A stretch of 64,000 nucleotides of DNA from an uncultured Candidatus Saccharibacteria bacterium (GTDB lineage: Bacteria > Patescibacteriota > Dojkabacteria > J137): contig CAZLOI010000002.1 in the NCBI GenBank assembly GCA_964561155.1, forward strand, positions 89,629 through 153,628, written 5' to 3'. Below are positions 35,261 through 49,782 of this stretch, piece by piece. Positions within the stretch are counted from its first letter, which is position 1. Every line of letters begins with the position of its first letter. Both the position numbers and the translations under genes were made by a program. A model generated the notes under the pieces. That model did not search any database, was not told the origin of the DNA, and saw only the letters and a list, made by a program, of their open reading frames with translations.

Positions 35261-35683
35261 TTAGAACAGTTCAGGACAGATTTGTTCTCGAAGAGTTTTG
35301 ATGTTCTCCTTTGTAAAGTGCACAGCTTCAAATGCCTTAGCACCAAGTGGATTTTCTCCTGGAAATTTCCCTATGTTAAAGGTTACGTAGTCTTGTTTTA
35401 GATTTGATATACCGATGTATCTAGGGTTGTATCCCATTACTTCCAAGTTCTTCTTTACTTTGTCTCCATGTACGAATCTTCCATTAGAATCTCTACCTAG
35501 ATTGTCATCAAGAAATACGTAGTGTAGCTTACTCATTGAAGGATCTGTAGATTCTTCTTCAAACCTTGTCCAATGGCTATATATACGAATATTCACTTCA
35601 TGTCCTTCAAATACTTTAGATAGTATTCTCTTGGCGCTTGAGTGATAGAAGGAATCATCTTCGAAGACTGCTATGTTTATCAT
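35261..35683 (-). CDS. receiver-like stand-alone domain (degenerate)
   Basis: IAVFEDD and YVFLDDNLG acidic pocket-like motifs. This is a weak call. Confidence 0.3.
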   Translation of the reverse strand: MINIAVFEDDSFYHSSAKRILSKVFEGHEVNIRIYSHWTRFEEESTDPSMSKLHYVFLDDNLGRDSNGRFVHGDKVKKNLEVMGYNPRYIGISNLKQDYVTFNIGKFPGENPLGAKAFEAVHFTKENIKTLREQICPELF

Positions 35684-35743
35684 GTATTAAGTATACTACA
35701 GGTATGCAAGTGCGAAGCTATTATGTCTTCAATGAACGCGAGA

Positions 35744-36553
35744 TTAAAGAAATCTAACATAGATATCTCCGAAATATGCGTTTTTCTTTGCATCGGACAA
35801 AATTTCTCTGAAATCTGATGAAGGAACCCATTTCCTTTCAACAAGTTTCATTGTCTCTCCCCAGGAGTAGTTACACTCTACTGGAGCAATAGATTCTATA
35901 TATTCTAAACACTCTAATGCTTGGTTATAGAATTCTGGAAACATAAATTCATATGAGATACAGCCGACTTTTTGGGTAAGACCCTTCAAAACATTAATCT
36001 CGAATCCTTCAACATCAACTTTTACAAGATGCGGTATCCCATGTTGGATGATTAGGTTATCTAAGGTATCAACTTTCACCTTTTCTTGTCTATTCCAACT
36101 ATTTTCTTTAAAAACCCCATTCTTAACTGAATTTATCCAGTCTAAATTCATTGAACTAATGGTATCTACATCTGCTATATGAATAACAGTCTCACCTGCT
36201 TTTTGATCCATACCTCCTTCAAAGAGAACAAAATTTTCGTTATTTCCAAATTTGTCATTCAGAATTCTAACGCAATTTGCTTGCGGCTCGACTGCTACTA
36301 CTCTTGCTCCTATATTTAGTAGAACTTCAGTTCTATTCCCTACATTTGCTCCAATATCAAAGACTAGGTCTCCCTTATTTATTAAGCTGGAATATAGAGC
36401 TCTCCTTCTCTGGAATTCTTTATATTCTGGAGACATTAAATACTTTGCATGATTATATTTTCTTGATACAAATTCTTTTGCTTTCTTAGCAGGCTTGTAT
36501 AAATTCGTTTTCTCTAAAGTATTTTTAATTAGTTCTTTTGTCTTCATAAACAT
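35744..36553 (-). CDS. FkbM-family methyltransferase
   Basis: VFDIGANVGNRTE...VVAVEP and VDVEGFE. Confidence 0.75.
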   Translation of the reverse strand: MFMKTKELIKNTLEKTNLYKPAKKAKEFVSRKYNHAKYLMSPEYKEFQRRRALYSSLINKGDLVFDIGANVGNRTEVLLNIGARVVAVEPQANCVRILNDKFGNNENFVLFEGGMDQKAGETVIHIADVDTISSMNLDWINSVKNGVFKENSWNRQEKVKVDTLDNLIIQHGIPHLVKVDVEGFEINVLKGLTQKVGCISYEFMFPEFYNQALECLEYIESIAPVECNYSWGETMKLVERKWVPSSDFREILSDAKKNAYFGDIYVRFL

Positions 36554-36555
36554 TT

Positions 36556-37542
36556 TTAATTATCTTTTAATAAAAATTGTTCATACTCAGCTTTCGACTT
36601 GAAACCTAAGTGGCTTAAGTGGCCTGCGATATCTCTATATGCTAGAAACAGTTTATGTTTTCTATAAAAATTTCTCAGTGCAGATTTTATAGTATCATTA
36701 TTAAACCTAGTTTTAGTATAGCTACTGTTTGTAGATTTGTCTGGTGCAAAATTTGCAGAATAGTGGATACACATAGCCATGTGACAATTCATGAACTTAT
36801 GACCAGTACTATTCAATCTATAGCTGAATTCATTATCCTCATAGTATGTACCCAGAGTATCATCAAACTTATTCTCGATTAAAACACTTGAGCGCCATAA
36901 TGTTGCTCCAGAAGGTAGCCAATTACAGTAATCGCTAACTAAAGTTGTTTGATCACTAAACTGTTTCTCAAAATCTCTTTCCTTGAATATTATCCAGTTA
37001 CCTTCGATTCTATACTCAGGTCTATTAATTTGTATCAAACCGTTGGGCATTATAACCTTGGATTGAACTGCTGATACTCCTGGATTGCTCTTCAGTGTGT
37101 GAACTAAATGTTCAAAATATCCAGGCATAATGTAAATATCATTATCTAGAAAAGCAACAAACTCACTCATAACGTACTTCATACCTTCATTTCTTGAGCC
37201 CGAACCACCAACATTTTTATCGAGGAGAACAATCTGAATATTGGAGTATTGCTTCGCAAGATCTGATAGGTACTCTTTGGTACCATCAGAAGAATTATTA
37301 TCTATTAGAATCAGTTTGAAACTTATCTTACAGGTTTTGAGCAAGTGATTTATTATTCTTTTTGTTTCTCTGATCCTATTGAAAGTAGGCATTATTATAT
37401 CTATTGTTTCTATATAGTCGCTATGCACCTCAAACTGGTTTTGAAAAATAAATGTCATGACATCCTTTTTTGTTCTTGGATATGTATAATCGAGATTGGC
37501 TACTTCAAGTAGCTTTGCTTTTATATTAGTTAATAAGTTCAT
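36556..37542 (-). CDS. glycosyltransferase family 2
   Basis: IIMPTFNR...LILIDNNSSDGT and DND. Confidence 0.8.
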   Translation of the reverse strand: MNLLTNIKAKLLEVANLDYTYPRTKKDVMTFIFQNQFEVHSDYIETIDIIMPTFNRIRETKRIINHLLKTCKISFKLILIDNNSSDGTKEYLSDLAKQYSNIQIVLLDKNVGGSGSRNEGMKYVMSEFVAFLDNDIYIMPGYFEHLVHTLKSNPGVSAVQSKVIMPNGLIQINRPEYRIEGNWIIFKERDFEKQFSDQTTLVSDYCNWLPSGATLWRSSVLIENKFDDTLGTYYEDNEFSYRLNSTGHKFMNCHMAMCIHYSANFAPDKSTNSSYTKTRFNNDTIKSALRNFYRKHKLFLAYRDIAGHLSHLGFKSKAEYEQFLLKDN

Positions 37543-38695
37543 TGAATAAATTTACATAACTAGATTGCATATCTTTTTTGTTAAATTTAGTCTTAACTTT
37601 CTTTACTGTTGGCTCCTGCAGATGATTTCTGTTAATAAAAGCTTCTGAAATCATTTGAGGCATTTCTTTTACTATATCATCATTGTGTAGTAAATATCCA
37701 TCAACACCATTATCGATTATTTCTCTTATTGCTCCCACATTCGTAGTCACTACAGGCTTTCCTAAAGCCATGGATTCCAAAATAACCATAGGAACACCTT
37801 CGAACTGTGACGTTAGTATTACCAAATCACTCATGGATATTATCTTTTTAACGACCTCATTATCTCTAGCCCCTGTTAATAGAATATTTGAATACGAAGC
37901 CTGTTGCTGAATACTTGTAAATAATTCGCCGTCTCCTATAAGAATGAAGTTGTAATCATTCATGATACGAGCTAGCTCAACTACTTTTTCAGGCTGTTTT
38001 TCAGGTGACATTCTCGCAGCCCATGTAATAATGTGCCCTTTATTTATGAAGGCTTCGATATTTGAGTCTAGATCAATATCTTTAATACGATTATTAATTT
38101 CATCGATATCAACACCATTTCTAATTACTTCTATCTTTTCTGGATTAATTTTATATTGATTTATATATAAGTTCTTAAGTCTATCGCTTATCACAATTCT
38201 GCTATCAATATACTCATCAAACATTGCTGAAAAGGCTGGTGAGCCTCCTTGATCCTCTGAACCACCTTCGCTATGTGTTAGGTCAGCTGTGTAACAGAGT
38301 TCGTGTATATGTTTGCATGATAAATAGCCACTAATCGAATTGGAGATAAATGTTACATCTATATTCAATTTCTTCACTGTTTCTGTGATTATATAAGTCT
38401 GAAGTTTCTCTGGAAAGTTTTCAATATGTATAATTCTATCAGAAACCGAACGAAATTTATCCTTCCATTCATGTCTCTTTTGTTTCGTTGTTATAATTGT
38501 AATATCCCAACCGTCTATCTTAAGTGCCTCTAGAATCTCGAGATTCACTTTCTCCGCACCGCCAAATGTTAACCAAGGTACAATAACCAGAATAGATTTA
38601 GCATTTTCTTCAACACTTCTTGAGTACTTGAGCAGAAATATCTTAGCTATTAACACTGCTAGAATATTCCAAATCTTGTTTAAAATGTACCTCAT
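37526..38695 (-). CDS. glycosyltransferase family 4
   Basis: EGVPMVILESMALGKPVVTTNVGAIREII. Confidence 0.8.
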   Translation of the reverse strand: MRYILNKIWNILAVLIAKIFLLKYSRSVEENAKSILVIVPWLTFGGAEKVNLEILEALKIDGWDITIITTKQKRHEWKDKFRSVSDRIIHIENFPEKLQTYIITETVKKLNIDVTFISNSISGYLSCKHIHELCYTADLTHSEGGSEDQGGSPAFSAMFDEYIDSRIVISDRLKNLYINQYKINPEKIEVIRNGVDIDEINNRIKDIDLDSNIEAFINKGHIITWAARMSPEKQPEKVVELARIMNDYNFILIGDGELFTSIQQQASYSNILLTGARDNEVVKKIISMSDLVILTSQFEGVPMVILESMALGKPVVTTNVGAIREIIDNGVDGYLLHNDDIVKEMPQMISEAFINRNHLQEPTVKKVKTKFNKKDMQSSYVNLFNELIN

Positions 38696-38696
38696 A

Positions 38697-40472
38697 TTAT
38701 TTGTCTATTGGCTTGTTTAAAAATATATCAACATATGCGTCTTTTGAAATTTTCGTATATTTTGCCTGTAACTCAGTATATCGCGATTTTACGTTTTCAT
38801 CAGAATAATGATAGATAACTAGATAATCCCATGATTTTTGATCTAATATACCATCTAGTATATCTATCATATTAATGTATTCGACATTATTTTCCCACCG
38901 TTCGCCATAGTATGGGTAGAGTGGAGAATCATTGTTGCCTGATACCAAAATCCTAGATGGTACACCATTACGATGATTATCCAACTCGCCAACATTCTCC
39001 ATATATCGCGGCTTATAATAATCTCCTATTGACATAGGCACCTGTTTTTCAAACCAAGATTTAACTGATAGCTTGAGCACTGGGTATTGAATCTTCGCGA
39101 AAGTGAGACCTAGATTAAATAATACAAGTGATAGTAAAACTACAATGGATAAGTACCTAATATATTTCCTTGAGCTATTCAAAAGGTATAGAGTACCAAT
39201 GAATACAGCAGTAACTGGTAGGAATAGGATCAATCGCAAGTCCCATTCATCTGGATTACGAATCGAGAAAAGAACAGCAAGTGTTCCCCAAATAACTAGA
39301 AAGAAAAGTGCATGACTATAGTGTCTTCTTAATAGGACTTTAACCCCTACAAAAATGTATATTGGTAATGCAAACATATTAAGAAACCCTGCATGTCCCA
39401 CATCGTGACTAAAGTACCTTGCTTCTTCTATCGATCTTAAGTAGAACCACGCTCCAAAGTGTCTAATATTATTCCATATAGTTAATGGCCCTACTGTCAC
39501 TTTCTTGGCATCACCTGGATCAAGTGCGATGAAGGATCCATAGTGTATAAATCCAATTATGTTATTTGGAATTGCTATTAATATTAGTAATGGAGTAGCT
39601 AAGATTATTACTAACCATTCCCTTGTCGTTAAAACCGGAGATTTATACAAGTTCTGCACGAGTCTTATCAAGATCAAGGCACCAATAATCCCACCAGCGA
39701 TGGTTCCATGGTGCTTTGTTCCAACAAGTATAGCTACAGCAAACAATAGTAATAATAAGTTCGGTAGATTAAATTTAAGATAAAGCCTATGAAGCATGAT
39801 CACTGATATGAGCAGTATCAACATAAATGTAAGATCATTTTGTGTAGTGTTAGCTTCGTAAAGATATAAAGGGACTGTTAACACTGCTAAAGATGACAAG
39901 ATGCTTGATACCTTACTCTTTTTAAAGATTTCTACACCAATATAAACTAATGCCAGAGGTATAAGAATAGCTGACAATAGTTGTGGTAGCTCTATCAGAT
40001 AGTCAATACCAAATATCGCAAATGCTACCCCATTAAGTATAGATGAGTTACTCCCAAATATATTAACTCTGGATACCGTTATGTTTGGGTCATACCAAAG
40101 TGATCCATGCTGCATACCGTTAGCCACTTTAGTCAGGTGATAGGTTAGACTATCCCAGTTTATTGCTGGGGAGAACGTAATGTATATCAAGTTAAAAAGC
40201 AGGAATGTTATCCAGACACCTACTACTAGAAGGACCAATATCTTGTTCCTTCTTGAAAGTCTCATAAATCTAGATTTGTATGCACCTAGATTTATGTATA
40301 TAGATTGTCTCCTTAGGATTAGATAGGAGAATAATACTATAAAGAAGAATATTGTGATTAGTAATACAGATTTAGTGGTATAGAGGGATAAAGCTGATAA
40401 TATCCAGGCACAAATCACCTCGAACGCCCAGAAGATGATGATAATGTGGAAAAGTTTAAGAATATACTTCAT
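38697..40472 (-). CDS. large polytopic membrane protein (GT-C-like / polymerase-like)
   Basis: 591 aa with more than 12 transmembrane segments, embedded in the glycan cluster. Confidence 0.45.
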   Translation of the reverse strand: MKYILKLFHIIIIFWAFEVICAWILSALSLYTTKSVLLITIFFFIVLFSYLILRRQSIYINLGAYKSRFMRLSRRNKILVLLVVGVWITFLLFNLIYITFSPAINWDSLTYHLTKVANGMQHGSLWYDPNITVSRVNIFGSNSSILNGVAFAIFGIDYLIELPQLLSAILIPLALVYIGVEIFKKSKVSSILSSLAVLTVPLYLYEANTTQNDLTFMLILLISVIMLHRLYLKFNLPNLLLLLFAVAILVGTKHHGTIAGGIIGALILIRLVQNLYKSPVLTTREWLVIILATPLLILIAIPNNIIGFIHYGSFIALDPGDAKKVTVGPLTIWNNIRHFGAWFYLRSIEEARYFSHDVGHAGFLNMFALPIYIFVGVKVLLRRHYSHALFFLVIWGTLAVLFSIRNPDEWDLRLILFLPVTAVFIGTLYLLNSSRKYIRYLSIVVLLSLVLFNLGLTFAKIQYPVLKLSVKSWFEKQVPMSIGDYYKPRYMENVGELDNHRNGVPSRILVSGNNDSPLYPYYGERWENNVEYINMIDILDGILDQKSWDYLVIYHYSDENVKSRYTELQAKYTKISKDAYVDIFLNKPIDK

Positions 40473-40473
40473 C

Positions 40474-41307
40474 TTATTTTGTAAAATCCTCTACAGCTTC
40501 TATAACTCTAAGTTTGACATTACCATACCACGATGCAAATTGACTGAAAGTACTTGGAGGACCAATTATTAGATCCATCTTTGCAAGTAGGAATAGATCA
40601 ACAATGAACTCATTATTTGAAATTATTAACTCATCTTCATTAATACCATTAAATTCTGACTTATCTCTTTTTTCATCTGAAAAAATCACAAATACAACAC
40701 TATTGTCTTGAAACTCTTCTCTCAATTTCTTCATACCGTTCAGGTAATCTTTTACCTCATAGAAATACTTACCATTAAGGTGATCCTTGTAATCAGTTCT
40801 ACGCATATGAACAGCTATCTTAAGCTTATCTCTTGGAATATCTAACAAAAAACTGTCTATAGCATCTCGATATTGCTTTGCTGGTTTAAATTTCTCGCGA
40901 ACGGTGTCACCGTGCTTATCCAAACCGAGCGTATTTCGAAATAGCCACCCGTTCAGAAACAGTACTGGGTAACGAGCTTGAAAGGCGTTGTTCGTTGGAG
41001 GCAAGATTATTGCATTATCTTCATGTCCTGTATGAAGTACATTCGCTATTTTAATACGTGAATTTACTTTTAAAAGAAATGATGAAAGGATGTGTCCCCA
41101 ACTTTTACCTAAGTAACCCCTCATCCGAAGGGAAGGAGAATGCAAGGAATTATTTTCGAGATAATGGAAGTACTTGGCGTAGGGCTCAAAAGTCGGATTT
41201 ATCAACAGATATTTCTTATCTACACAATATGCATAAATACTAATGTAATTCCAGAGTTGATTTGCAAGCCTACCACCATTATGACTTTGAATAATGACTA
41301 TTTTCAT
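40474..41307 (-). CDS. GT11-like fucosyltransferase
   Basis: N-terminal GGRLANQLWNY (compare GGLGNQ) and HMRRTDY (compare the HxRRGDY motif). Confidence 0.55.
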   Translation of the reverse strand: MKIVIIQSHNGGRLANQLWNYISIYAYCVDKKYLLINPTFEPYAKYFHYLENNSLHSPSLRMRGYLGKSWGHILSSFLLKVNSRIKIANVLHTGHEDNAIILPPTNNAFQARYPVLFLNGWLFRNTLGLDKHGDTVREKFKPAKQYRDAIDSFLLDIPRDKLKIAVHMRRTDYKDHLNGKYFYEVKDYLNGMKKLREEFQDNSVVFVIFSDEKRDKSEFNGINEDELIISNNEFIVDLFLLAKMDLIIGPPSTFSQFASWYGNVKLRVIEAVEDFTK

Positions 41308-42083
41308 TGCTTCAATAAGCTAAAAACCTTTCGGTATTTGTAGTATCTTGCATAAATGTGCTGGAGGAATCTTCTATAGAACTTTAATTCCCAAATCTTC
41401 CCCCAATATCTTTTTGCAACTTTATCGTGCTCTCTTACAAATTTCGGGATAGAGCTACCGGTCTTAGATTCAGGATGCAATTGGTACACAGATAACAAAT
41501 CTGGCACTACTTTGAATTTTTCACCTCCAGTTAGGAACCGTAACCATAAATCATGATCCATGCAATAGTGTAAGCTCTCATCAATTGATCCATACTTATC
41601 AAGTAATGATTTTCTAAAGAAGATCGAAGGTTGAGCTGGGATAGAATATTCAACCCACCATCTAATTAGTGTCTCTTCATTAATCTCTAACTGTGGGATT
41701 AACTTTTCTTCTCCTGTTTCTAAATCTAGTAACATACACTTACCAGAGAGTATTGTTACACTTGGGTCTTCAAAATATTCTGCGACTCTAGAAAGGACAT
41801 TGTCATCAGAGTAAAAGTCGTCTGCATTCAACCAGGTAACTATATCTCCCGTTACCATTTTTAAACCCTTATTAATAGCATTAGATTGTCCAGAATCTTT
41901 TTCAGAAACATAGGTGAGCTTATCTTTATGTTTCTCCAGAATCTCAACTGTCCCATCACTTGATGCTCCATCTATTACAATATGTTCAATATTTCTATGC
42001 GTTTGTTTTTGGAGCTTTAGTATGTGATCCTCTATAAACTTAGCTCCGTTATAGACAGGTGTCACTATAGAGAACTTTACCAT
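41304..42083 (-). CDS. glycosyltransferase family 2
   Basis: FSIVTPVYNGAKFIE...IVIDGASSDGT. Confidence 0.8.
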   Translation of the reverse strand: MVKFSIVTPVYNGAKFIEDHILKLQKQTHRNIEHIVIDGASSDGTVEILEKHKDKLTYVSEKDSGQSNAINKGLKMVTGDIVTWLNADDFYSDDNVLSRVAEYFEDPSVTILSGKCMLLDLETGEEKLIPQLEINEETLIRWWVEYSIPAQPSIFFRKSLLDKYGSIDESLHYCMDHDLWLRFLTGGEKFKVVPDLLSVYQLHPESKTGSSIPKFVREHDKVAKRYWGKIWELKFYRRFLQHIYARYYKYRKVFSLLKQ

Positions 42084-43123
42084 ATTCTATTTATGTCAGG
42101 ATTAATTACTTTAAATTTAGAATTTTGTCTTCTTCTTCCTTTGTAGAACTCTTTTGAGTGAACAAAAGATTGAAATGGTGCTCTTGTAGTCTCATCTTTA
42201 TTTTGTTGTTCCTTTAACCTAAGATCTGTCATGCTAGGAGTTGTTGTTGTATGGACTCTATACAAATGATAGAAACCTTCAATATGCTTTATCCTTGCCC
42301 CAGCTTTTGCCATACGCATCCAGAAATCCCAGTCTTCAAAGATCTGTCGACTTGTTGAATAACCGATATGATTCTCTTCCCAGAAAGATTTTCTGAATAC
42401 AGAAGGAGTTGGTATCGTATTAAATTCAAAGATATTATCATAGTAGAATTCTGGCATATCGTGTTCCCTATCTTCTTCCTCAAAGTATTTTATATCAGGA
42501 TATACAATGTCATAATATTCTTCTTCAAGGACGCGTATAGCATGTTTAAAGTAACCTTCAGCAAGCATATCATCAGCATCTAACATGCAGATGTATCTGC
42601 CTCTAGATTCCTCTATACCTCTCAACCTATTTTCTCCAATTGAGGACTTTGCTTCTTGGAAGACAACCCTTGTATTAGGCCATGATTTTGCTTTTATTTC
42701 TTCTCTTGACCCATCTGTTGACATTCCTTCTACTATTATTACTTCTACACGATCTCCCAACCCTTGGTTGTTTATGCTATTTACACAGTCATCTATGTAG
42801 TTCATATAGTTAAAGAAGGGGATAACGACACTAATTAATGGACCATCTACTCTAGTATTCTGTATTGTCGTACTTGTAAGGTGAAGATACAACTCGTGTG
42901 ATTTTTTATACAGGAATGAGATCCCTGGAATTGCATTCAGTAACATATCTATTCGCTGTATTGGGTTTAAATGTCGTGCAAATAACATCTCTCTAAGCCT
43001 CCATATTCTACTTCGATGAATGCTAGCAAGCTGATGCTTCACTTTATCTAACTCGAGAAGTTGGTGTCGGGTGATCAACAGATCCCTTTCAAGTTTTGCA
43101 ATTTTCTTATCTTTATCGTCCAT
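42077..43123 (-). CDS. glycosyltransferase family 2 with N-terminal coiled coil
   Basis: ISVVIPFFNYMNYIDDCVNSINNQ...DADD. Confidence 0.75.
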   Translation of the reverse strand: MDDKDKKIAKLERDLLITRHQLLELDKVKHQLASIHRSRIWRLREMLFARHLNPIQRIDMLLNAIPGISFLYKKSHELYLHLTSTTIQNTRVDGPLISVVIPFFNYMNYIDDCVNSINNQGLGDRVEVIIVEGMSTDGSREEIKAKSWPNTRVVFQEAKSSIGENRLRGIEESRGRYICMLDADDMLAEGYFKHAIRVLEEEYYDIVYPDIKYFEEEDREHDMPEFYYDNIFEFNTIPTPSVFRKSFWEENHIGYSTSRQIFEDWDFWMRMAKAGARIKHIEGFYHLYRVHTTTTPSMTDLRLKEQQNKDETTRAPFQSFVHSKEFYKGRRRQNSKFKVINPDINRIW

Positions 43124-43127
43124 ATGA

Positions 43128-44441
43128 TTACTGCTTTAACATCTCAGTATAAAGGCTAATGTATTTTTTGACCATAGTATCTAAAGTGAATCTTTCTTTA
43201 AAAACCTTTGTGGATTGGTTTGCAGCGCTGTTTCTTAGCTCTGTATTATCTAAAAAGAGCTTAACTCCTTTAATGAAATCTTGGCTGTCATTGTATTTAG
43301 CAATATACCCAGTCTCCATGTGGGTTACCAACTCAGGAATCCCCCCCGTATTATATGTAATTACTGGTGTACCAACTGCCATATTTTCAATAACAGTAAG
43401 TGGGCAGTTATCCCAAAGTGATGGATATATGAATAGATCAGCTGATGAGTAGTATTTAGCAAGCAAGAATTGATCACTAATGTAGGATATCGTTACTGTA
43501 TTCTCCGCCATGAAATCCTCTCCACCACCTCCGAGTATTGCAAAGACAATATTGGGATCATATGACAGTTCTTTATACATTGCGAGTAGAGTAGCTCTAG
43601 AATCTTTAGTACCTTCTGCTAACCCCCAAGCTGCACTGAATAGAAGAATGGTCTTATCTAATGGCAAACCTAACTCTTCCCTAACTGATGCTTTATCATA
43701 TTGCTTGAATACCGACTCATCTACCCCGTTATATATTAGATGGACTTCTTTATCTTTAAAAATACCTCGTTTTGCTTTCTTTCTCAACCATTCAGATGGT
43801 GTAACTACCATAATGTGAGAGTTTTCAACTATTTTTCTAGATAGATTCCTAAAAAAAAGTCTCCTACGTGTACTCAAATCAGGATATGTTTGTAATTCTC
43901 CTGAGACACTATTCGAATCAGGATAATCTTCAAATAAATCTAAGGTGTCATGTAATGTCCAGATGGTAGGCTTAACGGCAGAAATCTTTGGTAATACTAA
44001 CTTGTTGAAGTAGTTTACATGAAGATTGTGCAAATGTACTATATCCGCATCCTTAAAAGCATCAAAGTTTATAACTCCAAATGACGCACTAGTGAGGAAG
44101 TCATAGAACCTAAATTTTGTATCTAATCTATGCATAAGGTTAGACATGCCTTGCTCACTTACACTTATTGGATGAATATTTTCTTCTGGGCTTGTGATCA
44201 GTCCTGCAATAATCTTTGAATCTACACCTGATTTTTGAAGTTTCTTATGTAATCTATAAGCTAACATAGCGGCACCACCTTTCTTATCTACTTCTGAAAT
44301 ACTTGTTACTGCTAATAGTTTATTCTTGTTCAAATATGACTTTTTATGTTTGTAAGCAACAAAAACAAACACCACATTAAGATAAATGGATAAGAAACTC
44401 TGAATAAGTCTTGTAATTATCTTCTTAAAACTCTTTTGCAT
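43128..44441 (-). CDS. glycosyltransferase family 4
   Basis: GT-B C-terminal domain ...GGIPELV.... Confidence 0.7.
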   Translation of the reverse strand: MQKSFKKIITRLIQSFLSIYLNVVFVFVAYKHKKSYLNKNKLLAVTSISEVDKKGGAAMLAYRLHKKLQKSGVDSKIIAGLITSPEENIHPISVSEQGMSNLMHRLDTKFRFYDFLTSASFGVINFDAFKDADIVHLHNLHVNYFNKLVLPKISAVKPTIWTLHDTLDLFEDYPDSNSVSGELQTYPDLSTRRRLFFRNLSRKIVENSHIMVVTPSEWLRKKAKRGIFKDKEVHLIYNGVDESVFKQYDKASVREELGLPLDKTILLFSAAWGLAEGTKDSRATLLAMYKELSYDPNIVFAILGGGGEDFMAENTVTISYISDQFLLAKYYSSADLFIYPSLWDNCPLTVIENMAVGTPVITYNTGGIPELVTHMETGYIAKYNDSQDFIKGVKLFLDNTELRNSAANQSTKVFKERFTLDTMVKKYISLYTEMLKQ

Positions 44442-45354
44442 ATCTTAAAATGAATAAATTCCTTAGCTTTGCATCTTTTAAAATAGATGCGCTGTTGCTA
44501 TAAAATATTTTCTGAGCATGTTTTAGATCAGGAAAGTGTTGGATAAAGGCATGGTTTAGCTCGATTAAAAATTTTAATGTATTTCTATTTCCCCAGAATC
44601 CCTGCTTCCCAACTCTGTTTCTTAATAAATCTATTTGAGTTTCAGAAATATCAATATCTAGTAGCTTCTTTACATATTTTTTGATTATAAAACCTGCAAT
44701 CTCTTCCTGTCTTGTTCTATGTTGAGTTGTAATACTTTGAGAATGAACACGATACTGGATCAAAAACTCTTGTAGATTGTGTACCTTTCCGCCTGCTTCG
44801 ATTATTTTCAACCAAAGCTCATAGTCCTGCGCTTTATTGTATTCTGTACTATATCCTCCTATGTTTAGTACAAAATCTCTAAGAAACATAGCACTACTGT
44901 GCGCAATACTATTCACAAATATTATATTGCCAACATTGTCTTCGTGAGTTTCTGGATTTATTATTGTGCCGATAACATCACCTTTTTCATTGATTAAGGT
45001 TAGATTGCTTCCTACTAAGGTATAGCCAGTGCTTTCTAAAAACTCAACCTGCTTTTCAAATCTAGTAGAATCAGATACATCATCTGCATCGATTCTTGCA
45101 ATGTACTTACCTTTAGATAGAGATATACCCGTATTTGCAGATACGAATGGACCTGAGTTACTTTTATTAGTATGTATGAGTAATCTCTTATCTTTTATAG
45201 TACTCAATATTGAACCAGTACTATCTGTCGAGGCATCATCAACTACTATCAGTTCAAAATTCTTATACGTTTGATTTAAGATACTATTTAAGCACTCTAA
45301 CAAGTAGTCCTGTCCGTTATATACAGTTACGATTACACTGACTAGTGGTTTCAT
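44425..45354 (-). CDS. glycosyltransferase family 2
   Basis: VSVIVTVYNGQDYLLECLNSILNQTY...LIVVDDASTD. Confidence 0.85.
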   Translation of the reverse strand: MKPLVSVIVTVYNGQDYLLECLNSILNQTYKNFELIVVDDASTDSTGSILSTIKDKRLLIHTNKSNSGPFVSANTGISLSKGKYIARIDADDVSDSTRFEKQVEFLESTGYTLVGSNLTLINEKGDVIGTIINPETHEDNVGNIIFVNSIAHSSAMFLRDFVLNIGGYSTEYNKAQDYELWLKIIEAGGKVHNLQEFLIQYRVHSQSITTQHRTRQEEIAGFIIKKYVKKLLDIDISETQIDLLRNRVGKQGFWGNRNTLKFLIELNHAFIQHFPDLKHAQKIFYSNSASILKDAKLRNLFILRYAKEF

Positions 45355-46250
45355 ATTGGTAACCTAATCCAGTTAGATAAAACTATTTCATTTTTATTCA
45401 TAATATCATCTCTAAACCACTGATTTGGCGCTATAACTACTTTTTCTTTGTTTTCGGAAAGCCAAGCTCCCCACCAGCTAAAAGTACTGTTAGCAATAAT
45501 AAAATGTTTGCAGTGCTTCATTAACTCCAGATCAATATAGCCGTTTTCTATAGAATTAGAATCGCAAATTACGAAGTTACTTTGCATTTTAAGATTAGCT
45601 TTTACCCAGTCCACATCATCTGAAAAGATAAAGAAGGTGGGGTTAATTACCTTGTTATTAATATAATCTATAGCCTTTTCATAGTATCCTAAACTTAAAC
45701 TAGCAAAATGATTTGCAGCTGCACTATTTGTTACATAGTCACTCCTCCTAACATGAAGAGCTACTGATTCACTTTTAAGAATCTGATTCAAGAACTCTTC
45801 GTTTTTTCCCTCTAGCTTACTCTTAAGTGTAAAGTCTTTTAGTAGCTGTGGTCTAATTGACTCGAAATATTTGTGATTTGGCCAATACCCTTCAAGATAG
45901 ATATTCGCTTTCAAAGAAAAAAGAAGACTATCAAACATCCTTGATTTCTCTTTGTAGTATATATTTAAGTTAGTGATACTTAAGTAGCTTGCAAGAAAGA
46001 TCTTAATTGTATTGAAGAAACCTTTTGAGAATTTCTGTTTTTCTTCCACTGAACATTCAGTTAAATCAGTGTTAAATACTCCAAGTTTCAAGCTTCTACT
46101 GATATAGTCGCCCTGCAGTTGGTCTTTATCTCTTTCCAGAGAACTTGAATCGACCTTGAAATTAGTAGCTAATTTAGTTGCCAAAGACTTACCTATAGAA
46201 TACTGGAGCATTTGGTTACCAAGTCCTCCTTCTAGTTTGGTTATGATCAT
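45351..46250 (-). CDS. GT11 alpha-1,2-fucosyltransferase
   Basis: LEGGLGNQMLQY and ALHVRRSDYV. Confidence 0.8.
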   Translation of the reverse strand: MIITKLEGGLGNQMLQYSIGKSLATKLATNFKVDSSSLERDKDQLQGDYISRSLKLGVFNTDLTECSVEEKQKFSKGFFNTIKIFLASYLSITNLNIYYKEKSRMFDSLLFSLKANIYLEGYWPNHKYFESIRPQLLKDFTLKSKLEGKNEEFLNQILKSESVALHVRRSDYVTNSAAANHFASLSLGYYEKAIDYINNKVINPTFFIFSDDVDWVKANLKMQSNFVICDSNSIENGYIDLELMKHCKHFIIANSTFSWWGAWLSENKEKVVIAPNQWFRDDIMNKNEIVLSNWIRLPI

Positions 46251-46251
46251 A

Positions 46252-47184
46252 TTATAAAGAAATTAAATCCTTAAAATCTTCCTTGAATTTTTCAATCATA
46301 TCATTTGGTATTGCAACAATGTTCGCTATCTTTGAATCCAAGCTAGTGTGCAAAATATTGTCCTTATAGTCTTCCGATAATCCAAGAAAGCTATAGTTAC
46401 TTCTCAAGAACTCTAGATGCAGAATATCTTCTTTAGTATAACTTGCATCCTTTGATGTATTTGACGAAAACTCGAAGATTATTATTGGTTTTGCGTCTTC
46501 AATAGTATTTTTTGCACCTTTCAGTACATTAATCTCAAAACCTTCGACGTCAATCTTCATTAACCCTGGTTTTAAAAAATTCATTTTTTTACTTATACCA
46601 TCTAATGATACAAGTTCAACAGATTGTATCCCTGAGCATTGAATATACTGACCATCAACATCCTTTCTCCGAACTAATGAGTTTTGTCCTGAGTTATCAT
46701 ATAGATTAATCTGTTCGTTTCCAGCATTGTCTGATAACGCATAATTTAGATGACTGATGTTAGCACTCCCACTCAAGACAATATTCTTTTTAAGAATATT
46801 GACTGTTGATGATACTGGCTCAAATGCATAAATCTTAGAGAAAAGTTTTGATAATAATACACTGTAATATCCTATATTAGCTCCAATATCCATAAAGGCA
46901 GTATTTTTTAGCTCATCTCTATATCGATTTGATATTGTTTTCAACCAAAACTCAACATTATGTTCATAATACCCCTCGTTACTAAAAGCCCATGCCCTGT
47001 CATCTGGAATAAAAATAGAGAAAGCTCCAAAATTCTTTGTTATAGTGTTTGATGGGGTTCGAAGGAATATACTTCTAAAAAATCTTTTGAAGTGCTTTAA
47101 GACCCTGACTGGAAAGCCATCCTGATATTCCAAAATATGATTGGGATTATTTTTAATAGTTTTTTTAACTGATAAATTCCCCAT
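46252..47184 (-). CDS. FkbM-family methyltransferase
   Basis: MDIGANIGYYS...AFEP and IDVEGFE. Confidence 0.75.
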   Translation of the reverse strand: MGNLSVKKTIKNNPNHILEYQDGFPVRVLKHFKRFFRSIFLRTPSNTITKNFGAFSIFIPDDRAWAFSNEGYYEHNVEFWLKTISNRYRDELKNTAFMDIGANIGYYSVLLSKLFSKIYAFEPVSSTVNILKKNIVLSGSANISHLNYALSDNAGNEQINLYDNSGQNSLVRRKDVDGQYIQCSGIQSVELVSLDGISKKMNFLKPGLMKIDVEGFEINVLKGAKNTIEDAKPIIIFEFSSNTSKDASYTKEDILHLEFLRSNYSFLGLSEDYKDNILHTSLDSKIANIVAIPNDMIEKFKEDFKDLISL

Positions 47185-47194
47185 ATAACTTCGG

Positions 47195-48424
47195 TTACTT
47201 CTTAATGTGCCACTCTGTAGGCAATTGTAAAAGCCCGTGAGTTAGTGGTTTATCTGCAAAGACTGTAAACAAGAAGTTCTTTTCATGCCAGTCCAACACA
47301 TTCCCCATGTCACCCTCTGCCAATGTTATTGTACATCTGTAATTACCTGGCTTTAGATATAACTTAGGTACTACAAAATCATAGAAGCCGATACCATTGA
47401 GATTAAGGTTTTTTGTGTCAACATGTTGATTAGAGAATGAAACTATCACGCTAATATTCTCAACGTTTGCAATACCGAACGTGAATAGTGGGGTTTTAAC
47501 TTCTCTTTTTAGATCATAATGTATTCGCGCTTTAAAATAATCTCCTACCCCGAACTCTGTCTTCTTATCTTCATTCTCATCTAAAAACTCTACATTATTT
47601 ATTATTGTCTGCACATCGTTCGTAATATGGGTACCCACAGAGGTTAAATCGTCCTTGTCCTTCTTAAACATGAAGTTTTCGAAGTGATCACAGACAGTAT
47701 TAACATCTCCTGATTCTCTGACCACACCATTGTCAATCCAGATCACTTTTTCACATACGTTACGTATCTGATTCATTCCATGACTCACAAGTATTATTGA
47801 ACCGCCCTTTTGTCTATATTCAGAGATTTTTTTATGACACTTCAAAGCAAACTGTAGATCACCGACTGCTAAAACTTCATCTGCAAGTAATATTTCGGTA
47901 TCACTATGTATTGCTATAGAGAATCCTAGTCTAACTGTCATACCAGAAGAATAAGTAGAAACTGGAGCGTCAATAAACTCGCCAATATCAGCAAACTCAA
48001 GTATATTATCAAACTGTCGTGCTATTTGCTCTTTTGTCATTCCCAATATTGTTCCATTCAAATACACATTTTCTCTACCACTCATGTGAGGATGGAAACC
48101 AGCACCCACAGCAATCAAGGCTCCTATTTTTCCACGTACAGTTATCTTTCCAGTGTCTGGTGGAAAAATGCCATTAATTATTCTTAGAAGTGTAGATTTA
48201 CCAGAACCATTACTTCCTATAATGCCTAAACCACCGCCTCTCCTAAGCTCGAAGTTAATATCTTTTAATGACCAGAATTCACCTTTACGTAGCTTAGAGG
48301 TCTCAGGTTTTATACCCACCATACTCTTAGCGATATCCGAAGTTCCATAAAGCATGCTTCTCTTTATGCTTCTGGTAAACTTCTTACTAACATTTTCTAC
48401 TTTTATTACTATGTCGTCATCCAT
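47195..48424 (-). CDS. wzt: polysaccharide ABC transporter ATP-binding protein with C-terminal extension
   Basis: GIIGSNGSGKSTLLR, YSSGMTVRLGF and LLADEVLAVGD, plus about 150 aa of C-terminal beta-rich domain beyond the nucleotide-binding domain. Confidence 0.85.
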   Translation of the reverse strand: MDDDIVIKVENVSKKFTRSIKRSMLYGTSDIAKSMVGIKPETSKLRKGEFWSLKDINFELRRGGGLGIIGSNGSGKSTLLRIINGIFPPDTGKITVRGKIGALIAVGAGFHPHMSGRENVYLNGTILGMTKEQIARQFDNILEFADIGEFIDAPVSTYSSGMTVRLGFSIAIHSDTEILLADEVLAVGDLQFALKCHKKISEYRQKGGSIILVSHGMNQIRNVCEKVIWIDNGVVRESGDVNTVCDHFENFMFKKDKDDLTSVGTHITNDVQTIINNVEFLDENEDKKTEFGVGDYFKARIHYDLKREVKTPLFTFGIANVENISVIVSFSNQHVDTKNLNLNGIGFYDFVVPKLYLKPGNYRCTITLAEGDMGNVLDWHEKNFLFTVFADKPLTHGLLQLPTEWHIKK

Positions 48425-48425
48425 A

Positions 48426-49298
48426 TTAGATCATTCTTTCAATAACTTTATCTTCGGAAACAAAGAATAGTCTCCATGACAACATAAAGAATAGAAAGGA
48501 AATAATTGAAACTAAAATATAACGTTCTGGATAATAAATCTGTCCTTCAACAATCAAATCTCTTGCCCCTGTTATCAAATAAGTTAGTGGGTTAATCTGT
48601 ACAACAGTTCTTAGTAACTCATTATCAATCCTATCAAGTTGATAAACAATCGGAATTGCATAAAATACAAACCCCATTAGTATATTGATTATATTGGTTA
48701 AGTCACTAGCAACGACACTTACTACACTAACTACAAGACCCATACCTGCACCAAGAAGGAATATTGGTATCACAACTAGAGGAAAGAAGATAATACTTGG
48801 ACTTGGAACAACACCAAAAAGTAAAAGTACTACAATATTTACTAAGAAAGTTATCAAGAAGTTGGCTAAATGCTGCGATACTTGTTTTACCAATAGTACC
48901 TCATGTGGGTATTTAACCTGATTAATAAATCCTGCGCCTGCATTCAGTGTTCCAGCAGATGAACTATAAAAACCCATAAATAATCCCCAGATAGAAGATC
49001 CTAATAATACATAAGCAGGGAAAGGGATGGGTGTATCTCCAGGTTGCAGAATTCCAGCAGAGTTCAAAAATACCCAAGATACAATACCTACTAGAGGCGA
49101 AATAAATATCCAAGCCATACCAATAAAAGATTTCTTATATGACATGAAGAAATCTCTTCTAAATAATTGCCATATAAGCTCTCTAGACTTAAAGATATTT
49201 CTAAACATAGTACCCCAAGTCTCAAAGAATCCAATCTTTAATCTCTGGTTAGGTTCATATATACTTATGTTTGATTCTTGTATAATATTTCCATTCAT
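48426..49298 (-). CDS. wzm: polysaccharide ABC-2 transporter permease
   Basis: Six transmembrane segments; its stop sits 1 nt from the wzt start. Confidence 0.75.
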   Translation of the reverse strand: MNGNIIQESNISIYEPNQRLKIGFFETWGTMFRNIFKSRELIWQLFRRDFFMSYKKSFIGMAWIFISPLVGIVSWVFLNSAGILQPGDTPIPFPAYVLLGSSIWGLFMGFYSSSAGTLNAGAGFINQVKYPHEVLLVKQVSQHLANFLITFLVNIVVLLLFGVVPSPSIIFFPLVVIPIFLLGAGMGLVVSVVSVVASDLTNIINILMGFVFYAIPIVYQLDRIDNELLRTVVQINPLTYLITGARDLIVEGQIYYPERYILVSIISFLFFMLSWRLFFVSEDKVIERMI

Positions 49299-49398
49299 AA
49301 CTCCATTTTAGCAGATTTGATTCAATCTGAGTTACAAAGATTATCTATAGGACAAATATGAAATAGAACCTGCAGAACTGATAATTGAACCTCTAAAC

Positions 49399-49782
49399 TC
49401 AATCTAGAATACCTTTCTCCACCTCATCTACAATCTGAGTGACAGTATACAAAGACTTGGTATAGTATTTAGAAATACCTAAAGATTTATACTCTTCCAA
49501 ATAACTATCTGCTTCTTCACCAGTTACTAAGATAGTGGCACCATCTTTATATAATTCATAAACGCGGTTACTACGAATAGTCTTTAAGAAATCTAAACCT
49601 GTTTCTTGTCCAACAAGACTATGATCTACCCAAAACAAATCAATCCTTGTACCTTCTTCTAAAAACTTTAAAGCGTCAGGAACATTATCAAAAGGTACAA
49701 CCTCATATCCTTTTAATCTTAACTTTGAAACTATCACCCTTTGTAGTCCAGGTGAATCCTCTAGTACCAATATTCTTGACAT
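49399..49782 (-). CDS. stand-alone response-regulator receiver domain
   Basis: ILVLEDS acidic pair, phosphoacceptor-like DLFWVDHSL, ILVTGE and a conserved Lys; 127 aa. Confidence 0.55.
   Translation of the reverse strand: MSRILVLEDSPGLQRVIVSKLRLKGYEVVPFDNVPDALKFLEEGTRIDLFWVDHSLVGQETGLDFLKTIRSNRVYELYKDGATILVTGEEADSYLEEYKSLGISKYYTKSLYTVTQIVDEVEKGILD

What the first reader, a model, noticed from the sequence alone, without database searches (positions are those of the whole stretch)
35261..49782. 13-gene ABC-transporter-dependent glycan cluster with two FkbM methyltransferases and two GT11 fucosyltransferases, bracketed by stand-alone receiver domains
All genes are on the minus strand with 1 to 4 nt overlaps or gaps: wzm, wzt (C-terminal extension of about 150 aa), FkbM, GT11, GT2, GT4, GT2 (coiled coil), GT2, GT11-like, a large polytopic membrane protein, GT4, GT2 and FkbM. 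In Wzm/Wzt pathways with an extended Wzt, the C-terminal domain binds a non-reducing-end cap that terminates chain growth. In E. coli O9a that cap is a WbdD-added methyl/phosphate. The FkbM methyltransferases here are good candidates for the capping enzyme, which would give a methyl-capped, fucose-containing polymer. The cluster is flanked by two single-domain receiver proteins (49399..49782 upstream, a degenerate one at 35261..35683 downstream). This suggests phosphorelay control of glycan production, which is unusual for O-antigen-type loci.
Basis: partly seen in the sequence, partly recalled or inferred. Interest (0 to 1): 0.55.

Follow-up and report, generated by a model that had tools for sequence, protein, structure and literature searches.

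The report
Capped surface-glycan export operon, likely CPR bacterium
This is a real 13-gene operon that builds a fucose-containing, methylated surface sugar chain and exports it through an ABC transporter that checks the chain's end cap; it most likely belongs to an ultra-small bacterium with no outer membrane, so it is not an O-antigen locus, and the two flanking receiver genes are not a conserved part of it.

Summary
Thirteen tightly packed minus-strand genes (35744..49298) encode Wzm, Wzt with a Wzt_C carbohydrate-binding domain, two FkbM methyltransferases, GT11, a GT11-like protein, four GT2, two GT4 and a 591-aa membrane protein.

New findings:
- The membrane protein is a GT-C-fold (ArnT/PMT_2-like) glycosyltransferase.
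- The only solved relative the Wzt C-terminal domain matches is the A. aeolicus domain that binds a 3-O-methyl sugar cap. The methyl-lid Trp is invariant here (W379).
- Relatives carry Wzt::FkbM fusion proteins, and every related cluster examined has at least one FkbM gene. This supports FkbM as the capping enzyme.
- gmd/fcl genes sit next to orthologous clusters, which supports fucose.
- The nearest named relatives are Patescibacteria/Dojkabacteria, which lack an outer membrane. The product is therefore a monoderm surface glycan, not LPS O-antigen.

The upstream gene is a canonical stand-alone receiver. The downstream 140-aa protein is a probable, very divergent receiver. Neither occurs beside any of six related clusters, and no histidine kinase was detected in the window. 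Phosphorelay control is unsupported.

Verdict: a new member of a known kind, of moderate interest.

The parts
48426..49298 (-). wzm, the ABC-2 permease of the glycan exporter
   Evidence: Pfam ABC2_membrane, E 2.8e-14. It is 80-86% identical to the gene in the same position in L083 and L089.
47654..48424 (-). wzt, nucleotide-binding domain (aa 1-257)
   Evidence: Pfam ABC_tran. The whole protein aligns with A. aeolicus Wzt (8dku/7k2t) at E 1e-65, and it also matches TarH/TagH.
47195..47653 (-). wzt, C-terminal carbohydrate-binding domain (aa 258-409, plus stop codon)
   Evidence: Pfam Wzt_C, 55.2 bits against a gathering score of 30.4. A profile of this domain alone hits the isolated A. aeolicus CBD crystal structures 8dky and 6o14 (E 3e-4) across the full domain. 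The A. aeolicus Trp362 methyl lid maps to W379, which is invariant in 46 of 46 homologues.
46252..47184 (-). FkbM-family methyltransferase 1, a candidate cap-forming O-methyltransferase
   Evidence: PF05050, E 7.5e-17, and TIGR01444 at 111 bits against a cut-off of 37.7. The FkbM domains fused to Wzt in P0019, P0034, P0045 and P0092 match this protein and not FkbM2. A gene with an FkbM hit follows wzt in L089, L090, L093 and, with only a weak Pfam hit, L091.
45351..46250 (-). GT11 fucosyltransferase
   Evidence: PF01531, 125.8 bits. Motif HVRRSDY is present. Orthologues occur in L083, L089 and L090.
44425..45354 (-). GT2 glycosyltransferase (a)
   Evidence: PF00535, E 3.6e-33.
43128..44441 (-). 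GT4 glycosyltransferase (a), with an N-terminal hydrophobic anchor
   Evidence: Glycos_transf_1 plus Glyco_transf_4. Hydrophobic segment at aa 12-30.
42077..43123 (-). GT2 with a ~50-aa helical, heptad-like N-terminus. It is among the best conserved glycosyltransferases of the cluster (61-71% identical in relatives).
   Evidence: PF00535 at aa 98-233. 61-71% identity in L083, L089, L090 and L091. The coiled coil was not formally tested.
41304..42083 (-). GT2 glycosyltransferase (c)
   Evidence: PF00535, E 1.1e-28. 68-73% identical in relatives.
40474..41307 (-). GT11-like accessory transferase (probable second fucosyltransferase)
   Evidence: PF01531 at 22.4 bits, below the gathering score of 23.9. 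Motif HMRRTDY is present. 27% identical to the GT11 over 124 aa. Present in L089 and L091, absent from L083 and L090.
38697..40472 (-). GT-C-fold membrane glycosyltransferase (ArnT/PMT_2-like), with an invariant NWDSLTYH loop containing D107
   Evidence: AF2 model pLDDT 80, pTM 0.85. Foldseek hits: ArnT 5ezm E 6.7e-6, then EmbA/B, DPY19, AftA and STT3. Six of 9 homologues hit PMT_2. Only 9 homologues were found in 5.8 billion proteins. Conserved motifs are shown.
37526..38695 (-). GT4 glycosyltransferase (b), with an N-terminal hydrophobic segment
   Evidence: Glycos_transf_1, E 1.9e-24. Hydrophobic segment at aa 4-22.
36556..37542 (-). GT2 glycosyltransferase (d)
   Evidence: PF00535, E 4.3e-26.
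35744..36553 (-). FkbM-family methyltransferase 2 (alternative cap enzyme, or an internal O-methyltransferase)
   Evidence: PF05050, E 4.2e-13, and TIGR01444 at 84 bits. Orthologues are the last cluster gene seen in L083 (53%; the locus ends within it) and lie near the 3' end in L091 (58%).
49399..49782 (-). Stand-alone canonical receiver (neighbour; not a conserved part of the system)
   Evidence: PF00072, 44.6 bits. E8, D9, D53, T86 and K109 align with the CheY/Spo0F/PhoB active-site residues. Absent from all six related clusters.
35261..35683 (-). Orphan 140-aa protein, a probable highly divergent receiver domain (neighbour; not a conserved part of the system)
   Evidence: No Pfam or NCBIfam hit. 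Only 3 credible homologues among 1.84 billion representatives. E8, D9, D59, S93, K106 and P108 are invariant. AF2 pLDDT 82. The 22 best Foldseek PDB hits are all receiver domains, but weak: E about 1e-2, TM 0.4-0.5. hhalign against a receiver profile gives 71%, E 3.6e-5.

Best explanation
The 13 genes form one operon for an ABC-transporter-dependent cell-surface glycan in a bacterium that is most likely a member of the Patescibacteria (CPR, near Dojkabacteria), and therefore has no outer membrane.

Proposed steps:
1. Inferred: a polyprenyl-phosphate primer is made by an initiating enzyme encoded outside the window.
2. Inferred from family membership: soluble or peripherally anchored GT2, GT4 and GT11 enzymes build the chain on the cytoplasmic face. 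It includes fucose added by GT11 from GDP-fucose.
3. Inferred, supported by gene fusion and co-occurrence: an FkbM-family O-methyltransferase methylates the non-reducing terminal sugar. This stops elongation and creates the export signal.
4. Shown by homology: the Wzt C-terminal domain is a member of the cap-binding CBD family. Its only detectable solved relative binds a 3-O-methyl sugar, and the Trp that lids the methyl group is invariant here. Wzm/Wzt then exports the capped lipid-linked glycan.
5. Fold shown, role inferred: the GT-C-fold membrane enzyme in the middle of the operon acts on the outer face. It either decorates the exported chain from a polyprenyl-phosphate-sugar donor or transfers the chain to its final acceptor (S-layer protein, wall or lipid).

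The two flanking receiver genes are lineage-specific neighbours, not components of the system.
For: Gene content and operon packing:
-.

Wzt carbohydrate-binding domain (CBD):
- Pfam Wzt_C scores above its gathering score.
- The protein aligns over its full length with A. aeolicus Wzt.
- A CBD-only profile hits only the A. aeolicus CBD crystal structures 8dky and 6o14.
- That CBD binds 3-O-methyl-mannose/rhamnose, with Trp362 stacking on the methyl group (PMC9445017).
- Trp362 maps to W379, invariant in 46 of 46 sequences. Thr346 maps to T365, which is T or S in 43 of 46.

FkbM link:
- Four independent Wzt::FkbM fusion proteins with the order NBD-CBD-FkbM.
- Their methyltransferase domain matches FkbM1.
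- L092 (fused) and L093 (split, overlapping genes) are syntenic.
- All 7 clusters (window plus 6 relatives) contain at least one FkbM gene.

Fucose:
- GT11 at 125.8 bits.
- gmd (561 bits, above the cut-off of 415) and an fcl-like gene lie directly upstream of wzm in the syntenic L083. gmd is present in L092 and fcl in L093.

GT-C enzyme:
-.

Conserved core across lineages (Wzt 57-83% identical):
-.

Monoderm host:
- Named nearest relatives are Patescibacteria/Dojkabacteria.
- CPR cells show an S-layer and no outer membrane and are described as monoderm.

Precedent in a monoderm:
- The Geobacillus S-layer glycan has a 2-O-methyl cap and Wzm/Wzt export (PMC2943079).
Against: - No chemistry is known. 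The cap could be something other than a methyl sugar. Four of the seven A. aeolicus pocket positions differ here, and the trap loop is 2 residues shorter.
- L083 lacks the FkbM gene after wzt, yet its Wzt has identical residues at all 12 mapped pocket positions. FkbM1 therefore cannot be the only possible capper. FkbM2 may be the capper, or the FkbMs may methylate internal residues.
- The FkbM genes that follow wzt in different lineages are mostly not orthologous to each other.
- No initiating phosphoglycosyltransferase, GDP-fucose synthesis gene, ligase, LCP enzyme or polyprenyl-phosphate-sugar synthase with membrane helices was found in the window.
- Taxonomy is inferred, not proven. Named CTP-synthase relatives at 59-64% identity include DPANN and other archaea as well as CPR bacteria.
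Confidence: 0.6

Rival explanations
1. First reader's model. This is an LPS O-antigen locus for a methyl-capped fucose polymer, and its expression or activity is controlled by a phosphorelay acting through the two flanking single-domain receivers.
For: - Receiver genes do sit on the same strand at both ends.
- RR127 has all the phospho-acceptor residues.
- Single-domain receivers in polysaccharide loci have a precedent in the named NCBIfam family EpsW, which RR127 hits only weakly (E 6.5e-4, far below the cut-off).
Against: - Neither receiver is present next to any of six related clusters.
- The receivers are separated from the operon by 100 and 60 nt, whereas the operon genes are packed within -17 to +10 nt.
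- No histidine kinase was detected in the ORFs scanned across the 64-kb window.
- The receivers have no output domain.
- The two short contigs carrying homologues of the 140-aa protein show no FkbM or ABC neighbours.
- The host is probably a monoderm without LPS.
Confidence: 0.1
2. The export pathway is the same, but the terminal signal is not an FkbM-made methyl group. The chain is instead terminated by a unique terminal sugar, for example the GT11-added fucose (analogous to the Kdo cap of K. pneumoniae O12). The FkbM enzymes methylate internal residues.
For: - GT11 follows wzt or FkbM in most clusters.
- L083 has no FkbM after wzt but has an identical mapped pocket.
- Relatives carry several extra methyltransferases, which suggests extensive internal methylation.
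Against: - The only solved CBD detectably related by sequence is the methyl-sugar binder, and its methyl-lid Trp is invariant.
- Wzt is fused to FkbM, not to GT11, in four lineages.
- Every cluster keeps at least one FkbM gene.
Confidence: 0.2
3. The locus makes a short, defined oligosaccharide for protein glycosylation (S-layer or pilin) rather than a polymer. The GT-C enzyme would act as the oligosaccharyltransferase.
For: - Eight or nine distinct transferases suit a defined heteroglycan.
- GT-C enzymes include the oligosaccharyltransferases STT3 and PglB. STT3 is among the fold hits, at rank 9.
- CPR cells carry S-layers.
- The Geobacillus precedent.
Against: - The best fold matches are ArnT and Emb, which use polyprenyl-phosphate monosaccharide donors. 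Homologues hit PMT_2.
- Cap-dependent CBD-bearing Wzt proteins are known for polymers whose length must be signalled.
Confidence: 0.25

Closest known systems
Aquifex aeolicus WzmWzt O-antigen exporter with a cap-binding CBD (PDB 7K2T, 8DKU, 8DKY, 6O14; PMC9445017)
   Same: - The Wzm plus Wzt(NBD-CBD) architecture is the same.
- It is the only solved CBD that the window's CBD profile hits.
- The Trp that lids the 3-O-methyl group is conserved.
   Different: - Sequence similarity in the CBD is low (E 3e-4 with a profile, and no hit with the single sequence).
- Four of seven pocket residues differ, and the trap loop is shorter.
- The host there is a diderm with LPS, and the polymer is D-rhamnose/mannose, not fucose-related.
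E. coli O8/O9a system: the WbdD terminator plus the Wzt CBD
   Same: The logic is the same: a methyl (or methyl-phosphate) cap ends elongation and licenses export (as summarised).
   Different: - From my own knowledge, WbdD is a class-I methyltransferase (with or without a kinase) on a long coiled-coil ruler.
- Here the candidates are FkbM-family enzymes with no such ruler.
- The O9a CBD is not detected by the profile.
- In relatives the methyltransferase is fused to the transporter itself.
Geobacillus stearothermophilus NRS 2004/3a S-layer glycan (slg) cluster (PMC2943079)
   Same: - The host is a monoderm.
- wzm and wzt are followed directly by the capping enzyme gene, with overlapping reading frames.
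- A 2-O-methyl cap is proposed to be read by Wzt.
   Different: - There the cap methyltransferase is a domain of the rhamnosyltransferase WsaE.
- Transfer to protein there uses a Wzy_C-type enzyme (WsaB), which was not found in the window. Here a GT-C enzyme is embedded instead.
- The sugars there are rhamnose.
Streptococcal rhamnose polysaccharides (GAC/RGP type): ABC export followed by GT-C decoration (GacL). Recalled from my own knowledge, not tested here.
   Same: - A monoderm wall glycan.
- Wzm/Wzt-like export.
- A GT-C enzyme inside the cluster that works on the outer face.
   Different: - In those clusters the partner GT2 that makes the lipid-linked sugar, and a flippase, are encoded alongside. 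None with membrane helices is seen here.
- Their ATPase lacks a Wzt_C domain, as far as I recall.
NoeI, an FkbM-family 2-O-methyltransferase acting on the fucose of rhizobial Nod factors. Recalled from my own knowledge.
   Same: An FkbM-family enzyme that O-methylates a fucose residue. This makes a methyl-fucose product plausible here.
   Different: It acts on a lipo-chitooligosaccharide, not a polymer cap. No sequence comparison was run.

Membership tests
Cap-dependent Wzm/Wzt (ABC-transporter-dependent) glycan pathway | ABC-2 permease (Wzm) adjacent to its ATPase (Wzt) | tested here: met
   PF01061 and PF00005 on adjacent genes 1 nt apart. PDB matches to WzmWzt and TarGH ATPases.
Cap-dependent Wzm/Wzt (ABC-transporter-dependent) glycan pathway | C-terminal carbohydrate-binding domain (Wzt_C) on the ATPase | tested here: met
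   PF14524 at 55.2 bits against a gathering score of 30.4. The CBD-only profile hits 8dky and 6o14 over the full domain.
Cap-dependent Wzm/Wzt (ABC-transporter-dependent) glycan pathway | Cap-binding pocket conserved | tested here: inconclusive
   The Trp lid is invariant, and Thr346 and Ile299 are conserved. Leu300, Ala348, His350 and Val380 differ, and the trap loop is shorter.
Cap-dependent Wzm/Wzt (ABC-transporter-dependent) glycan pathway | A chain-terminating (capping) enzyme encoded in the locus | tested here: inconclusive
   There are two FkbM candidates. Fusion and co-occurrence evidence supports them. No activity data exist.
Cap-dependent Wzm/Wzt (ABC-transporter-dependent) glycan pathway | Initiating polyprenyl-phosphate glycosyl-phosphate transferase (WecA/WbaP type) | tested here: not met
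   None was found among the window ORFs scanned with Pfam. It may lie elsewhere in the genome.
LPS O-antigen locus | O-antigen ligase (WaaL/Wzy_C) and an LPS-bearing diderm host | tested here: not met
   No Wzy_C hit in the window (same Pfam calls). The nearest named relatives are CPR bacteria, which are reported to lack an outer membrane. The rest of the genome was not available.
GT11 alpha-1,2-fucosyltransferases | Pfam PF01531 above its gathering score, plus the HxRRxD motif | tested here: met
   45351-46250: 125.8 bits, motif HVRRSDY. The second gene, 40474-41307, scores 22.4 bits (below 23.9), so it is 'GT11-like' only. It has motif HMRRTDY.
FkbM-family methyltransferases (PF05050 / TIGR01444) | Domain score above the curated cut-offs | tested here: met
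   111.3 and 84.2 bits against a cut-off of 37.7. PF05050 scores of 62.4 and 50.2 bits against 22.7.
GT-C fold glycosyltransferases (ArnT/PMT_2-like) | Multi-span GT-C fold with a conserved acidic residue in the first outer loop | tested here: met
   Foldseek probability 1.00 to ArnT, Emb, DPY19, AftA, STT3 and ALG9. Invariant D107 within NWDSLTYH. The window protein itself has no Pfam hit, but 6 of 9 homologues hit PMT_2.
Response-regulator receiver domain (PF00072) | Domain score above cut-off, plus the acidic pair, phospho-Asp, Thr/Ser and Lys | tested here: met
   For 49399-49782: 44.6 bits against 30.2.
Response-regulator receiver domain (PF00072) | The same features, for the 140-aa protein at 35261-35683 | tested here: inconclusive
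   No Pfam, NCBIfam or PDB sequence hit. hhalign gives 71%, covering the first half only. The 22 best Foldseek hits are all receiver domains but with E about 1e-2 and TM 0.4-0.5. The residue quintet is conserved in the 4-member family.
Two-component or phosphorelay-regulated polysaccharide locus | Receiver-locus linkage conserved in relatives, and a cognate kinase present | tested here: not met
   Zero of 6 related clusters have either receiver. No kinase domain was detected in the ORFs scanned in the window (Pfam).

The most novel reading that the evidence does not exclude
In Patescibacteria (Dojkabacteria and relatives), wzm-wzt(CBD)-FkbM forms a conserved 'cap-and-export' module. In it an FkbM-family methyltransferase is the chain terminator, a role not yet shown for this family. 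In some lineages the methyltransferase is covalently fused to the transporter's cap-reading domain, so termination and export licensing would happen on the same polypeptide. The product would be a methyl-fucose-capped S-layer or wall glycan of an episymbiont, possibly involved in host attachment.
Probability: 0.3. Interest if true: 0.6.

Novelty: new member of a known kind. Interest (0 to 1): 0.38.

Why it matters
- CPR bacteria have genomes of about 1 Mb and live attached to hosts. A conserved ~13.5-kb, 13-gene investment in one surface glycan suggests that this glycan matters for their envelope or for host contact.
- I found no paper describing Wzm/Wzt pathways in this group.
- The Wzt::FkbM fusions give glycobiologists a concrete, testable candidate for a second type of chain terminator, physically tied to the exporter.
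- For genome annotation, the finding is a warning that 'O-antigen/LPS export' labels on such genes are wrong in monoderm lineages.

Tried and rejected
It returned only distant relatives (at most 51% identity, other phyla), so it gave no close synteny or taxonomy. Close relatives were obtained with the look-up of encoding contigs instead.
- The metagenome scan with the 127-aa receiver found only 32%-identical genes in unrelated high-GC contigs with no wzm nearby. It was uninformative.
- The promoter/terminator scan found fewer sites than in shuffled sequence. It says nothing about whether the receivers are co-transcribed. Reading the two spacers showed no clear signal.
- PDB sequence searches with the GT-C family profile and the 140-aa family profile gave nothing. 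The single-sequence CBD search also gave nothing, so a profile was needed.
- Exact-sequence cluster look-ups gave no organism names.
- The CTP synthase search gave mixed CPR and archaeal names at about 60% identity. Taxonomy therefore remains an inference.
- I considered that the cluster might be a recently acquired island. Its GC content (0.33-0.36) matches its surroundings, so there is no compositional support.
- I considered that one of the GT2 enzymes might be the GtrB/ArnC-like synthase for the GT-C donor. None has membrane helices, and similarity to ArnC or PgfS is only at the generic GT2 level.

Full report
**1. The observation**

The window carries 15 consecutive minus-strand ORFs between 35261 and 49782, exactly as described.

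Pfam and NCBIfam confirm almost every label:
- Wzm (ABC2_membrane).
- Wzt: ABC_tran plus Wzt_C at 55 bits, above the gathering score of 30.4.
- Two FkbM-family methyltransferases.
- One clear GT11.
- Four GT2 and two GT4 genes.
- A 277-aa protein just below the GT11 threshold. It carries the HxRRxDY motif and is 27% identical to the true GT11 over 124 aa.
- An upstream Response_reg protein.

The 13 biosynthesis and export genes are packed within -17 to +10 nt of each other, as expected for one operon. The two receiver genes lie 100 nt and 60 nt away. GC content (0.33-0.36) matches the surroundings.

**2. The Wzt C-terminal domain**

The evidence goes the other way.
- The whole protein aligns with full-length A. 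aeolicus Wzt (8dku/7k2t, E 1e-65).
- That score is carried by the ATPase domain, so I tested the last 152 residues alone.
- The single sequence finds nothing in the PDB.
- A 17-sequence profile of the domain finds only the isolated A. aeolicus CBD crystal structures (8dky, 6o14; E 3e-4). The match covers the whole domain in the same register.
- That CBD binds 3-O-methyl-mannose or -rhamnose but not mannose. Trp362 stacks on the methyl group (PMC9445017).
- Mapping the published pocket gives:
  - Trp362 to W379, invariant in 46 of 46 homologues.
  - Thr346 to T365, which is T or S in 43 of 46.
  - Ile299 to I318.
  - Leu300, Ala348, His350 and Val380 differ.
  - The trap loop is two residues shorter.
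- The domain is therefore a genuine cap-binding CBD, closest to a methyl-sugar binder, but probably with a different sugar specificity.

**3. The capping enzyme**

- The Wzt search returned four independent proteins of 625-657 aa with the order NBD-CBD-FkbM (P0019, P0034, P0045, P0092).
- Their methyltransferase part matches the window's FkbM1, the gene directly after wzt, and not FkbM2.
- The fused locus L092 is syntenic with L093, from a Dojkabacteria MAG (GCA_047445235.1). In L093, wzt and FkbM are separate, overlapping genes. This is a true fusion/split pair.
- Across the window and six related loci, a gene with an FkbM hit follows wzt, or is fused to it, in six of seven (the L091 hit is weak). 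Every cluster has at least one FkbM gene.
- This is good genomic support for a functional link between the FkbM methyltransferase and the cap-reading transporter.
- Three caveats apply:
  - L083 has no FkbM after wzt, yet its Wzt is identical at all 12 mapped pocket positions. It keeps only the FkbM2 orthologue.
  - The post-wzt FkbM genes in different lineages are mostly not orthologues of each other.
  - Which of the two window enzymes makes the cap is therefore open, and internal methylation is not excluded.

**4. Fucose**

- The GT11 hit is strong (125.8 bits).
- The window contains no GDP-fucose synthesis genes.
- In the syntenic cluster L083, gmd (TIGR01472, 561 bits against a cut-off of 415) and an fcl-like gene (428 bits) lie directly upstream of wzm. 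gmd is beside the cluster in L092 and fcl in L093.
- A fucose-containing product is therefore likely.

**5. The 'large polytopic membrane protein'**

- It has no Pfam, NCBIfam or PDB sequence hit.
- It has only nine relatives among 5.8 billion clustered proteins. Every relative whose genomic context was examined lies in a homologous cluster.
- Six of the nine hit PMT_2.
- The family has an invariant NWDSLTYH loop after the third helix.
- An AF2 model (pLDDT 80, pTM 0.85) matches ArnT (E 6.7e-6), EmbA/B, DPY19, AftA, STT3 and ALG9.
- It is a GT-C-fold glycosyltransferase. Enzymes of this fold act on the outer face of the membrane using lipid-linked donors.
- Inference: it decorates or transfers the exported glycan. 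No partner lipid-sugar synthase with membrane helices is present in the cluster.

**6. Whose cluster is it?**

- The exact proteins occur only in metagenome assemblies and one unnamed 216.7-kb NCBI contig.
- The nearest named Wzt relatives are 'Patescibacteria group bacterium' (67% identity, with whole-cluster synteny in L083) and Candidatus Dojkabacteria (about 60%).
- Named relatives of the window's CTP synthase are Patescibacteria, Chisholmbacteria and Collierbacteria. They also include two archaeal lineages at similar identity.
- I therefore treat a CPR origin as probable, about 0.75, not proven.
- CPR cells imaged by cryo-TEM have an S-layer and no outer membrane (bioRxiv 10.1101/2020.05.14.094862; see also PMC8871954).
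- The window has no WaaL-type gene.
- The product is therefore best seen as a monoderm surface glycan. The closest functional precedent is the Geobacillus S-layer glycan pathway: wzm, wzt, a 2-O-methyl cap, then transfer to the S-layer protein (PMC2943079).

**7. The receivers**

- The upstream 127-aa protein is a canonical stand-alone receiver. Its residues E8, D9, D53, T86 and K109 align with the active-site residues of CheY, Spo0F and PhoB.
- The downstream 140-aa protein is nearly an orphan, with three credible homologues among 1.84 billion representatives.
- Its small family keeps E8, D9, D59, S93, K106 and P108.
- Its AF2 model (pLDDT 82) has 22 receiver domains as its 22 best PDB matches, but weakly: E about 1e-2 and TM 0.4-0.5.
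- hhalign against a receiver profile gives 71%, covering the first half only.
- 'Degenerate receiver' is a fair description and is probably right.
- The interpretation of phosphorelay control has no comparative support:
  - Neither gene is found by tblastn or Pfam in any of six related clusters.
  - The flanks of those clusters differ from each other.
  - The two short contigs carrying relatives of the 140-aa protein show no FkbM or ABC neighbour.
  - No kinase domain was detected in the ORFs scanned (almost all of those of 130 aa or more) in the 64-kb window.
  - Neither protein has an output domain.
- Adjacency in this one lineage is all that remains.

**8. Verdict**

- The finding is real and was well read.
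- It is a new member of a known kind: a cap-dependent Wzm/Wzt glycan pathway.
- Two corrections are needed. It is not an O-antigen locus, and the receivers are not part of the system.
- Three additions were made: the GT-C enzyme, kinship to the methyl-cap CBD, and the Wzt::FkbM fusions.
- Interest is moderate (0.38). The CPR setting and the transporter-methyltransferase fusion are worth a specialist's attention, but the logic of the pathway is established.

Noticed in passing
window 5410-14018: A probable integrated mobile element. tRNA-His (5410-5485) abuts, and overlaps by 8 nt, a 540-aa serine recombinase gene (5478-7100). This is followed by a HinP1I-type restriction enzyme plus a C5 cytosine methylase (8414-10156), a subtilase (10670-12907) and an AAA ATPase (12894-14018). 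GC drops to 0.28-0.31 in this stretch.
   Followed up: no
relatives: P0019, P0034, P0045, P0092; L092 9001-10974 compared with L093 4207-6379: Natural Wzt::FkbM fusion proteins (NBD-CBD-methyltransferase, 625-657 aa) exist in relatives. A syntenic locus has the two as separate, overlapping genes.
   Followed up: yes
window 60589-62277 (+): A second GT-C/PMT_2-type membrane glycosyltransferase lies about 11 kb from the cluster, outside the operon. It hits the LA_3751/LA_3752 family, below the cut-off.
   Followed up: no
window 38697-40472 and 35261-35683: Both proteins belong to extremely rare families. The GT-C protein has 9 homologues among 5.8 billion clustered proteins. The 140-aa protein has 3 credible homologues among 1.84 billion representatives.
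   Followed up: partly
window 50343-50600; L001 1-1500: Homology with the near-identical strain contig L001 stops at window position 50485. Beyond it, L001 has a CarboxypepD_reg protein where the window has DUF892. The flank of the receiver side is therefore rearranged even between strains.
   Followed up: partly
window 47195-48424 compared with L001: Wzt is 100% identical in protein sequence between strains, although parts of the gene's DNA are only about 98% identical, so all differences are synonymous. The neighbouring receiver is 94.5% identical, and the distal half of the cluster is 91-97% identical in protein.
   Followed up: no
window 56166-59603 (-): A pyruvate:ferredoxin oxidoreductase gene set with a flavodoxin. 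The ORFs 57638-58933 (POR + POR_N) and 57067-57720 (PFOR_II) overlap by 83 nt. This may be a frameshift or a mis-called start in one alpha-subunit gene.
   Followed up: no
window 50038-50343 and 50563-51168 (+): Divergent from the receiver gene lie a very acidic 101-aa protein with no family hit and a DUF892 (YciE-like) protein with a long Glu/Asp-rich tail.
   Followed up: no
window 30474-32166 (+); 14418-14813 and 54640-55062: A tandem pair of LiaF-like membrane proteins (LiaF is a cell-wall-stress response protein), and two DUF1761 paralogues about 40 kb apart.
   Followed up: no
relatives: L083, L090, L091, L092 and L093, directly after wzt: The slot after wzt is a variable 'modification module'. 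Its contents differ between lineages: different FkbM paralogues, class-I methyltransferases, a hexapeptide acetyltransferase, or an ATP-grasp (TupA-like) enzyme. This suggests diversification of the terminal or side-group chemistry.
   Followed up: partly
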